NCBI RefSeq assembly: GCF_016903815.1
Contig: NZ_CP069973.1
Strand: one strand, 5' to 3'
From: Escherichia coli
Lineage (GTDB): Bacteria; Pseudomonadota; Gammaproteobacteria; Enterobacterales; Enterobacteriaceae
DNA: 64,000 bases
Shown: piece by piece, positions 61,220 through 61,552 of the stretch
How positions within the stretch are numbered: position 1 is the first letter of the stretch
Layout of the letters: each line of letters opens with the position of its first letter
Notes under the pieces: model-generated
What the model was told of the DNA's origin: nothing
Seen by the model: the letters and a program-made list of their open reading frames with translations, nothing else
The model's database searches: none
Program-made: the position numbers and the translations under genes

Positions 61220-61254
61220 GGGCGACACACCTGCATCGCCCTGATTGACATCGT

Positions 61255-61410
61255 TGATTCTTTGACCTAATTTAGTGAGTAAGGGTAAGGGAGGATTGCT
61301 CCTCCCCTGAGACTGACTGTTAATAAGCGCTGAAACTTATGAGTAACAGTACAATCAGTATGATGACAAGTCGCATCATAACCCTTCTCCTTCAAGCCCT
61401 CGCTTCGGTG
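61255..61410 (+). ncRNA. sibC: SibC antisense small RNA (type I antitoxin), approximate boundaries
   Basis: + strand transcript region fully overlapping ibsC, with hairpins agggaggattgctcctcccct and agccctcgcttcggtgagggct. The boundaries are estimated, not mapped. Confidence 0.55.
61320..61379 (-). CDS. ibsC: Type I toxin IbsC (19-aa hydrophobic peptide)
   Basis: The minus strand ATGATGCGACTTGTCATCATACTGATTGTACTGTTACTCATAAGTTTCAGCGCTTATTAA translates to MMRLVIILIVLLLISFSAY. It is too short for the ORF track. Confidence 0.8.
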   Translation of the reverse strand: MMRLVIILIVLLLISFSAY

Positions 61411-61552
61411 AGGGCTTTACCGTTACAGCCCCATGCTGCCCTGCCATCGTAAATCCCCATTAAATAAACACAACGCATTGATCTGACTTTGATTTATTTT
61501 CTGGAGCAGACTCGCAAAGTAGAATGCGCAACGCGGCAACGGTGTGGAGAAG

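What the first reader, a model, noticed from the sequence alone, without database searches (positions are those of the whole stretch)
61250..61420. Type I toxin-antitoxin locus (ibsC/sibC) between fau and serA
A 19-codon highly hydrophobic ORF (MMRLVIILIVLLLISFSAY) on the minus strand is embedded in a region with strong hairpins on the opposite strand. This fits the Ibs toxin and Sib antisense RNA arrangement. Neither is visible in the ORF track.
Basis: partly seen in the sequence, partly recalled or inferred. Interest (0 to 1): 0.35.

Follow-up and report, generated by a model that had tools for sequence, protein, structure and literature searches.

The report
Known ibsC/sibC toxin-antitoxin locus
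This is the well-studied E. coli ibsC/sibC pair, a 19-residue membrane-toxic peptide gene silenced by an antisense small RNA from the opposite strand; here it is base-for-base the K-12 copy, so it is real but ordinary.

Summary
The minus strand carries a 19-codon ORF at 61320..61379 (MMRLVIILIVLLLISFSAY). It is the most hydrophobic of 436 short ORFs in the window. The plus strand over it matches Rfam SIB_RNA end to end (133.8 bits; gathering score 56). It also folds far better than shuffled sequence (z = -6.3). The fau-serA spacer equals E. coli K-12 MG1655 at 386 of 388 bases, and both differences lie upstream of the sibC promoter. K-12's annotated sibC (b4446) maps to 61281..61421 (+) and ibsC (b4665) to 61320..61379 (-). 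The peptide matches Pfam Ibs_toxin over the full profile (45 bits; cut-off 27). The spacer is present at 80% coverage or more in 5421 of 5426 complete E. coli genomes. Across 36 family copies from several enterobacterial genera, 34 keep an 18-19-codon frame. The codons not fixed by my search pattern vary in the way coding sequence does. The mechanism is published for this exact sequence. SibC pairs with ibsC mRNA through two recognition domains, blocks translation and promotes decay. Unrepressed IbsC depolarises the inner membrane. Nothing new was found at the locus. Interest is low.

The parts
61245..61273 (+). sibC promoter: -35 TTGACA (61245-61250), 17-nt spacer, -10 TAATTT (61268-61273)
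   Evidence: Read from the sequence. TTGAC and the -10 position are conserved in all five K-12 sib paralogs. The Rfam SIB_RNA model starts at this TTGACA. The generic sigma-70 scan missed it because TAATTT matches only 3 of 6 consensus positions. Its promoter function is inferred from its position 7 nt upstream of the annotated SibC 5' end.
61281..61421 (+). SibC antitoxin RNA, 141 nt
   Evidence: The K-12 annotation of sibC b4446 was transferred through an alignment that is identical over this stretch. Rfam RF00113 scores 133.8 bits against a gathering score of 56. The fold z-score is -6.3. A consensus fold of 36 family copies keeps helices P1, P5, P6 and P7.
61326..61348 (+). TRD1, SibC +46..+68 (P5 stem-loop); pairs inside the ibsC ORF (codons about 11-19)
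   Evidence: Positions come from Han et al. 2010 (PMC2943612) and were mapped onto the window from the SibC 5' end at 61281. Allelic differences among E. coli at this locus cluster here, at 61329-61332.
61379..61395 (+). TRD2, SibC +99..+115 (P1 3' arm plus J1/7); pairs with the ibsC start codon and Shine-Dalgarno region
   Evidence: Positions come from Han et al. 2010 and were mapped as for TRD1. This stretch is the complement of the GAAGGAGAAGGG-TT-ATG segment of the minus strand.
61396..61421 (+). SibC P7 terminator hairpin (stems 61396-61403 and 61408-61415, loop TTCG) followed by the tail UUUACC
   Evidence: Minimum-free-energy fold. Compensatory changes occur in 4 of its pairs across the family. 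Han et al. call it the P7 transcription terminator stem. It is too T-poor for the generic terminator scan.
61320..61379 (-). ibsC coding sequence: 19 codons plus TAA; peptide MMRLVIILIVLLLISFSAY
   Evidence: Translation. Identical to K-12 ibsC b4665. Pfam PF13956 scores 45 bits against a cut-off of 27 over profile positions 1-19 of 19. RefSeq annotates it as 'type I toxin-antitoxin system toxin IbsC'.
61382..61393 (-). ibsC ribosome-binding region GAAGGAGAAGGG; the AAGGAG core lies 7 nt before the ATG
   Evidence: Read from the sequence. AAGGGT is conserved before the ATGATG in all five K-12 paralogs. Han et al. place the TRD2 target in the translation initiation region.
61281..61439 (-). ibsC mRNA, about 159 nt, 5' end at 61439
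   Evidence: This is derived, not measured here. Han et al. mapped the 5' end by primer extension on CAT fusions. They used a 159-nt transcript whose duplex with SibC leaves an 18-nt 5' overhang, so 61421 + 18 = 61439. In their work the 3' end was estimated from the transcript size. The predicted fold is -62.7 kcal/mol, z = -4.8.
61446..61473 (-). Candidate ibsC promoter: -35 TTGTGT (61473..61468), 16-nt spacer, -10 TACGAT (61451..61446)
   Evidence: Inferred from the sequence. The -10 lies 6 nt upstream of the derived 5' end. The corresponding -10-like hexamer aligns in the four paralogs. Han et al. report conserved promoter elements at this place. It falls below the generic scan threshold.

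Best explanation
This is the chromosomal type I toxin-antitoxin pair ibsC/sibC of E. coli. The minus strand makes a roughly 159-nt mRNA for IbsC, a 19-residue single-helix hydrophobic peptide. The plus strand makes SibC, a 141-nt structured RNA that is perfectly complementary to the whole ibsC ribosome-binding site and ORF. SibC contacts the mRNA first through two exposed segments: TRD1 (the P5 loop, which targets the ORF) and TRD2 (J1/7, which targets the SD and start codon). Pairing then spreads from these contacts. This blocks ribosome binding and exposes the duplex to RNase III, so IbsC is not made. If SibC is lost or outcompeted, IbsC inserts into the inner membrane, collapses the membrane potential and stops growth. 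The anatomy, family membership, identity to K-12 and conservation were shown here. The transcripts, repression, toxicity and recognition domains are taken from published experiments on the identical K-12 sequence. The physiological trigger and purpose remain unknown.
For: Rfam SIB_RNA matches at full length, 133.8 bits against a gathering score of 56, on the + strand at 61245..61395. Pfam Ibs_toxin matches at full length, 45 bits against 27. The spacer between fau and serA is identical to K-12 MG1655 except at 61226 and 61232, both upstream of the sibC promoter. In K-12, sibC (b4446) and ibsC (b4665) are annotated at the corresponding positions. The spacer is present at 80% coverage or more in 5421 of 5426 complete E. 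coli genomes. Sib-like DNA occurs at a median of 4 places (range 1-7) per genome. Thirty-four of 36 family copies from Escherichia, Citrobacter, Salmonella, Kluyvera, Pseudocitrobacter, Phytobacter and others keep an 18-19-codon antisense ORF. In codons 8-19, which my search pattern did not constrain, summed entropy is 6.33, 2.73 and 10.74 for codon positions 1, 2 and 3. There, 62.5% of single-base codon differences are synonymous, against 26.3% of possible changes. The RNA helices are kept across the family, including a G-C to C-G swap split 18:18 in P5 and compensatory pairs in P7. Literature: a delta-ibsC/sibC strain cannot take up an ibsC plasmid unless SibC is supplied, and SibD cannot substitute. 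TRD1 and TRD2, binding and probing are described. Deleting rnc raises ibs mRNA. IbsC overexpression depolarises cells within minutes and induces psp genes.
Against: No expression data exist for this particular strain. The generic promoter scan found no sigma-70 consensus on either strand. NCBIfam gave no hit for the peptide padded to 20 residues. The homologues were collected with a pattern that fixes parts of P1, P6 and the first seven codons, so invariance there is uninformative. The sequences are also phylogenetically related, so the counts are not independent. No phenotype for deleting the chromosomal locus, and no natural inducing condition, is established for IbsC. Fozo et al. 2008 could not be read here.
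Confidence: 0.97

Rival explanations
1. It is an RNA-only element. The two overlapping transcripts regulate each other or their neighbours, and the 19-codon frame is incidental and never translated.
For: The ORF is tiny and lies wholly inside a structured RNA gene, so RNA constraints alone could conserve the sequence.
Against: In the codons not fixed by my search pattern, position 3 varies more than position 1, and position 1 more than position 2. Synonymous changes are 2.4-fold over-represented. The stop codon position is kept in 34 of 36 copies. A good SD (AAGGAG) sits 7 nt before the ATG. The peptide matches Pfam Ibs_toxin. Published mutagenesis ties toxicity to peptide residues.
Confidence: 0.01
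2. It is a decayed, non-functional copy of the Ibs/Sib repeat: a genomic fossil of the 'QUAD' repeat family.
For: Decayed copies do exist elsewhere. L021 has lost its stop codon and L029 is frameshifted.
Against: This copy has an intact ORF, SD, both promoters and the terminator. It is identical to the K-12 copy used in the published functional experiments. It is retained in essentially all E. coli genomes.
Confidence: 0.01
3. The hairpins are merely the transcription terminators of the convergent genes fau and serA, and the hydrophobic ORF is a chance reading frame.
For: The locus sits between two convergent genes, where terminators are expected. SibC's 3' hairpin could also stop read-through from fau (inference only).
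Against: The serA terminator is a separate, canonical hairpin with a T-run at 61588..61562. The element recurs at unrelated loci in the same genome (yegL-mdtA, yqiK-hldE) with the same ORF. The Rfam E-value is 2e-27. The ORF's hydrophobicity is 3.7 sd above other short ORFs in the window.
Confidence: 0.01

Closest known systems
E. coli K-12 MG1655 sibC (b4446) / ibsC (b4665), formerly RygC / QUAD1c
   Same: Same position between fau (ygfA) and serA. Identical sequence from the sibC -35 box to the serA stop codon. Identical 19-aa peptide and an identical 141-nt RNA.
   Different: Nothing within the element differs. There are two substitutions upstream of it, at 61226 and 61232. The host strain differs from K-12 elsewhere in the window.
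Paralogous pairs sibA/ibsA, sibB/ibsB, sibD/ibsD and sibE/ibsE of K-12
   Same: Same architecture, the same RNA helices and peptides 68-84% identical. Promoter, SD and terminator are conserved.
   Different: The paralogs lie in tandem pairs at other loci (yegL-mdtA, yqiK-hldE). Their sequences differ mainly in the TRD1 and TRD2 regions, which makes each Sib specific for its own ibs mRNA (PMC2943612).
Salmonella Typhimurium IbsA/SibA (yqiK-rfaE spacer)
   Same: A 19-aa Ibs-family toxin with a cis-antisense Sib RNA. It lowers ATP and membrane potential (bioRxiv 10.1101/2025.05.26.656083).
   Different: It lies at a different locus and has a different sequence (His3 is required there; IbsC has Arg3). 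It is reported to bind the Fo a and b subunits and to act bacteriostatically. None of this has been tested for IbsC.
Other type I toxin-antitoxin systems (Ldr/Rdl, Hok/Sok, TisB/IstR-1, ShoB/OhsC, Zor/Orz)
   Same: A small hydrophobic membrane toxin whose mRNA is silenced by an antisense RNA (PMC4147584, PMC8309996).
   Different: In Ibs/Sib the antitoxin covers the entire ORF and ribosome-binding site. In the other systems it covers only a UTR or a standby site, or is encoded in trans. Ibs is the shortest of these toxins (18-19 aa) and lacks the charged C-terminus of most of the others.

Membership tests
Sib antitoxin RNA (Rfam RF00113) | Covariance-model score at or above the curated gathering score, over the full model | tested here: met
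   133.8 bits against 56, model positions 1-147 of 147, E = 2.4e-27. Repeated on the 601-nt region.
Sib antitoxin RNA (Rfam RF00113) | Conserved multi-helix fold (P1 closing stem, internal hairpins, 3' terminator hairpin) supported across homologues | tested here: met
   The minimum-free-energy fold has z = -6.3. RNAalifold on 36 copies keeps P1, P5, P6 and P7, and 8 of 29 pairs show double changes. Caveat: the invariance of P1 and P6 was forced by the retrieval pattern.
Sib antitoxin RNA (Rfam RF00113) | An abundant transcript of about 140 nt from this strand | not testable with these tools
   Published for the identical K-12 sequence: endogenous SibC on Northern blots, with defined ends (PMC2943612).
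Ibs toxin (Pfam PF13956) | Profile score at or above the gathering score over the whole 19-residue profile | tested here: met
   45 bits against 27, profile positions 1-19 of 19, E = 9e-12. One upstream residue was added to reach the tool's 20-residue minimum.
Ibs toxin (Pfam PF13956) | An 18-19-codon frame conserved among homologues with a coding-type substitution pattern | tested here: met
   34 of 36 copies are intact. Entropy by codon position is 6.33, 2.73 and 10.74, and the synonymous fraction is 0.625 against 0.263.
Type I toxin-antitoxin system | The antitoxin RNA is encoded antisense to the toxin mRNA and overlaps it, including the translation initiation region | tested here: met
   SibC at 61281..61421 (+) contains the ibsC ORF at 61320..61379 (-) and the SD at 61382..61393.
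Type I toxin-antitoxin system | The peptide is toxic when over-expressed, and the cognate RNA relieves the toxicity | not testable with these tools
   Published for the identical sequence. A delta-ibsC/sibC strain cannot be transformed with an ibsC plasmid unless SibC is co-expressed, and SibD does not rescue (PMC2943612). Depolarisation and loss of viability are summarised in PMC8309996.
ibsC/sibC orthologue (as opposed to another Ibs/Sib paralog) | Location between fau and serA, and the highest identity to K-12 sibC/ibsC | tested here: met
   Synteny is ygfB-zapA-ssrS-fau-[sibC/ibsC]-serA-rpiA. Identity over the element is 100%. Peptide identity to the paralogs is only 68-84%.

The most novel reading that the evidence does not exclude
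The evidence does not exclude that IbsC works through a specific protein target rather than by generic membrane damage. One candidate is the Fo a/b subunits of ATP synthase, as recently claimed for Salmonella IbsA. It also does not exclude that the hotspot seen here among E. coli alleles is maintained by selection to keep each Sib-ibs pair private from its paralogs. That hotspot is IbsC codon 17 (Ser, Pro or Gly through multi-base changes) at 61329-61332, inside TRD1. Neither idea was tested here. Both concern the biology of a known system, not a new kind of element.
Probability: 0.2. Interest if true: 0.3.

Novelty: already known. Interest (0 to 1): 0.05.

Why it matters
It matters little beyond correct annotation. 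The pair is easy to miss because the ORF is below usual length cut-offs and the antitoxin is an RNA. Even RefSeq records annotate ibsC but often omit sibC: strain 504239 has no sibC feature. Confirming it shows that the first-stage reader can recognise a type I toxin-antitoxin locus from raw sequence. The open questions about Ibs/Sib are when the toxin is ever made, what it is for, and whether it has a protein target. This window does not advance them.

Tried and rejected
1. The generic sigma-70 and terminator scan of 61150-61650 found no promoter and only the serA terminator. Both element promoters and the SibC terminator deviate from the scan's consensus, so they had to be placed by paralog alignment and the literature.

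2. The NCBIfam scan of the peptide, padded to 20 residues, gave no hit. I treat this as uninformative.

3. Two other mechanical ORFs cross the element: 61339..61452 (+, 37 aa) and 61267..61395 (-, 42 aa, TTG start). I rejected both. The + strand ATG is ATC, ACG or AAC in most family members, and that frame runs past the SibC 3' end without a stop.

4. A second Sib copy in the window was sought with a 3-mismatch pattern search and with Rfam. None was found.

5. A weak sraA-like hit at 61492..61596 scored 21.8 bits against a gathering score of 56, E = 0.73. I regard it as chance.

6. A 'plasmid-borne' Sib hit (NZ_CP146689.1) turned out to sit in chromosomal-type context, yegI...mdtA. It is not evidence that the element is mobile.

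7. Orthologues at fau-serA were sought outside Escherichia. Among the 30 loci retrieved, only two Escherichia loci had fau or serA nearby. The pattern search may have missed divergent copies, so absence in other genera is not shown.

8. The primary paper (Fozo et al. 2008, PMC2597788) and the MMBR review (PMC2593563) are not held. Their results are cited only through papers that could be read.

Full report
**Observation**

Window 61379..61320 on the minus strand reads ATG ATG CGA CTT GTC ATC ATA CTG ATT GTA CTG TTA CTC ATA AGT TTC AGC GCT TAT TAA. This gives MMRLVIILIVLLLISFSAY followed by a stop. At 19 codons it is below the 20-aa floor of the ORF lister, which is why it does not appear.

I enumerated all 436 ATG-started ORFs of 15-30 codons in the six frames of the window. 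This ORF is the most hydrophobic: GRAVY 2.44, against a mean of -0.10 and sd of 0.69.

The opposite strand is strongly structured. Window 61272..61415 (+) folds at -57.5 kcal/mol, against -35.8 +/- 3.4 for 200 dinucleotide-preserving shuffles. That is z = -6.3, and no shuffle folds as well.

**Identity**

- A scan of the whole window against Rfam gives a full-length SIB_RNA (RF00113) match at 61245..61395 on the + strand. It scores 133.8 bits against a gathering score of 56, with E = 2.4e-27 (repeated).
- The peptide, padded with one upstream residue to reach the tool's minimum length, matches Pfam PF13956 Ibs_toxin over all 19 profile positions. It scores 45 bits against a cut-off of 27.
- Megablast of 61200..61620 finds the region in 5425 of 5426 complete E. 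coli genomes, and 5421 of them cover at least 80% of it. The listed matches annotate ibsC between fau and serA.
- In K-12 MG1655 the local gene order is ygfB, zapA, ssrS, fau, sibC (b4446, 141 nt, +) / ibsC (b4665, -), serA, rpiA.
- The 388-base fau-serA spacer of the window differs from K-12 at two positions only, window 61226 and 61232. Both lie between the fau stop codon and the sibC -35 box.
- Transferring the K-12 coordinates gives SibC = 61281..61421 (+) and ibsC = 61320..61379 (-). The K-12 peptide is identical.
- Only one Sib copy lies in the window.

**Anatomy**

- sibC promoter: TTGACA at 61245-61250, then 17 nt, then TAATTT at 61268-61273. The annotated 5' end at 61281 lies seven bases downstream. 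TTGAC and the -10 position are conserved in the five K-12 paralogs.
- SibC fold: it folds into a closing stem (AAGGGU...ACCCUU), internal hairpins and a 3' hairpin. That hairpin has stems at 61396-61403 and 61408-61415 with a UUCG loop, and is followed by UUUACC.
- ibsC translation signals: on the minus strand, GAAGGAGAAGGG (61393..61382) precedes the ATG at 61379.
- ibsC 5' end: Han et al. 2010 mapped it by primer extension. They used a 159-nt transcript whose duplex with SibC leaves an 18-nt 5' overhang. That places the start at 61439.
- ibsC promoter (inferred): a TACGAT hexamer (61451..61446) and TTGTGT (61473..61468) sit at appropriate distances. The -10-like hexamer aligns in the paralogs.
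- Recognition domains: their TRD1 (+46..+68) maps to 61326-61348, inside the ORF. Their TRD2 (+99..+115) maps to 61379-61395, over the start codon and SD.
- The generic promoter and terminator scan found none of these signals. It found only the canonical serA terminator at 61588..61562.

**Independent comparative evidence**

Sib-like DNA occurs at 20,314 places in 5425 E. coli genomes, with a median of 4 and a range of 1-7 per genome.

A gapped pattern built from columns invariant in the five K-12 paralogs retrieved 30 loci from the species-representative genome collection. They come from Escherichia albertii, Escherichia sp., Citrobacter, Salmonella, Kluyvera, Pseudocitrobacter, Phytobacter and others. 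Together with the K-12 paralogs and the window, this makes 36 distinct copies.

- ORF length: 34 copies keep an 18- or 19-codon antisense ORF. Two are decayed: L021 has lost its stop codon and L029 is frameshifted.
- Coding signature: in codons 8-19, which the pattern does not constrain, summed column entropy is 6.33, 2.73 and 10.74 for codon positions 1, 2 and 3. There, 62.5% of single-base codon differences are synonymous, against 26.3% of possible changes. This is a coding signature even though every base also belongs to a structured RNA.
- RNA structure: RNAalifold on the 36 RNAs recovers P1, a P5-type stem with a G-C to C-G swap split 18:18, P6, and the terminator with compensatory pairs. 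Eight of 29 pairs carry double changes.
- Caveats: the pattern fixes parts of P1, P6 and the first seven codons, so invariance there means nothing. The sequences are also related, so the counts are not independent events.
- Synteny: only two retrieved loci, both Escherichia, carry fau or serA next to the element.

Among E. coli alleles at this locus, the differences cluster at 61329-61332. This is IbsC codon 17, which reads Ser, Pro or Gly, and it lies inside TRD1. That agrees with Han et al.'s remark that the recognition domains sit in the most variable parts of the family.

**Mechanism**

All of the following is published for the identical K-12 sequence. It was not measured here.

- A delta-ibsC/sibC strain cannot be transformed with an ibsC plasmid unless SibC is co-expressed. 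SibD does not rescue.
- SibC binds ibsC mRNA, but not ibsD mRNA, at 37 degrees C. Contact starts at TRD1 and TRD2 and then spreads. The resulting complex is cut by RNase III in vitro.
- Deleting rnc raises ibs mRNA in vivo. A shorter Sib form appears to be a processing product.
- IbsC overexpression depolarises cells within minutes, kills within 30 minutes and induces pspABCDE. IbsC is alpha-helical, and toxicity depends mainly on residues 6-19.
- A 2025 preprint reports that Salmonella IbsA binds the Fo a and b subunits and blocks proton translocation. Whether IbsC does the same is untested.

The physiological trigger and role of the locus remain unknown.

**Rival explanations**

- An RNA-only element: contradicted by the codon-position signature, the conserved stop codon, the SD and the published mutagenesis.
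- A decayed repeat: contradicted by the intact signals and by identity to the functional K-12 copy.
- Mere terminators of fau and serA plus a chance ORF: contradicted by the separate serA terminator and by the recurrence of the same module at unrelated loci.

**Verdict**

The finding is correct, and it is already known in every respect that could be tested. Novelty is 'already known' and interest is low.

**Context noticed on the way**

The window is E. coli, and its first 50 kb are 100% identical to strains such as 222 and 103. It differs from K-12 between yqeG and uacT.

- The ETT2 remnant (yqeH...ygeP) is reduced to a hypothetical gene, an IS3 fragment and a truncated ygeQ.
- The ~31-kb xdhA...ygfT cluster between actS and uacT is replaced by an IS1A element.
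- Only 152 of 5426 genomes cover at least 80% of window 25001-50000.

Noticed in passing
window 34894-35591 (IS1A) between actS (34012-34767) and uacT (35919-37367): An IS1A element sits where K-12 carries the ~31-kb xdhA...ygfT purine-catabolism and oxidoreductase cluster (K-12 3,000,345-3,030,931). That cluster is absent from the window. Only 152 of 5426 complete E. coli genomes cover at least 80% of window 25001-50000.
   Followed up: partly
window 31279-33634: The ETT2 type III secretion remnant of K-12 (yqeH...ygeP, about 10.5 kb) is reduced here to three features. They are a 570-bp hypothetical gene, a truncated IS3-family transposase (31895-33054) and a truncated ygeQ (33089-33634), next to tRNA-Gly(CCC) glyU (33860-33933).
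   Followed up: partly
window 61329-61332 (IbsC codon 17, inside SibC TRD1): Among E. coli and Escherichia alleles at the fau-serA locus, most differences fall in this four-base patch. They change codon 17 between Ser (AGC), Pro (CCA) and Gly (GGA) by multi-base changes, while the rest of the 177-nt element is nearly invariant. The K-12-type allele (99% identity or more) is in 1549 genomes. Another 3831 genomes are 95-99% identical.
   Followed up: partly
window 60413-60596 (+): 6S RNA (ssrS) lies immediately upstream of fau, with Rfam 139.8 bits. The longest mechanical ORF for fau (60473..61219, 248 aa) starts inside it. K-12 annotates fau as 549 bp and PGAP as 603 bp, so the start codon is annotated inconsistently.
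   Followed up: no
window 19844-19931 and 20047-20128 (-): The tandem sRNA genes OmrA and OmrB, with Rfam scores of 96.6 and 86.1 bits. These are known sRNAs.
   Followed up: no
window 44960-45620 (-): ygfX and sdhE overlap by 20 bases. From general knowledge, this pair has been described as the CptA/CptB toxin-antitoxin-like pair. If so, the window holds a second, unrelated small toxin module.
   Followed up: no
window 37369-37562 and 39735-40833: The annotated micro-proteins YqfG (41 aa, +) and YqfH (23 aa, -) overlap tail to tail. prfB carries its programmed +1 frameshift, annotated as a joined CDS.
   Followed up: no
L040 (NZ_CP146689.1, 'plasmid unnamed2' of E. coli MS 198-1), locus 3057-4102: A 66.8-kb record labelled as a plasmid carries chromosomal-type genes (yegI...mdtA) and four tandem ibs genes, where K-12 has two (ibsA, ibsB). 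It is either an assembly or labelling artefact, or an excised chromosomal segment. It also shows copy-number expansion at that locus.
   Followed up: no
L021:362-500 and L029:5942-6081: These are two decayed family members. The Enterobacteriaceae MAG UBA3516 copy has lost the stop codon, giving a 37-aa frame. A Citrobacter sp. MGH106 copy is frameshifted after codon 8. A second copy in the same Citrobacter contig (L030) is intact.
   Followed up: no
L002 (NZ_CP025859.1), locus 2583-2723: The RefSeq/PGAP annotation of this genome lists ibsC but has no feature for sibC, although the sequence is identical to K-12, where sibC is annotated. The antitoxin RNA is under-annotated here.
   Followed up: no
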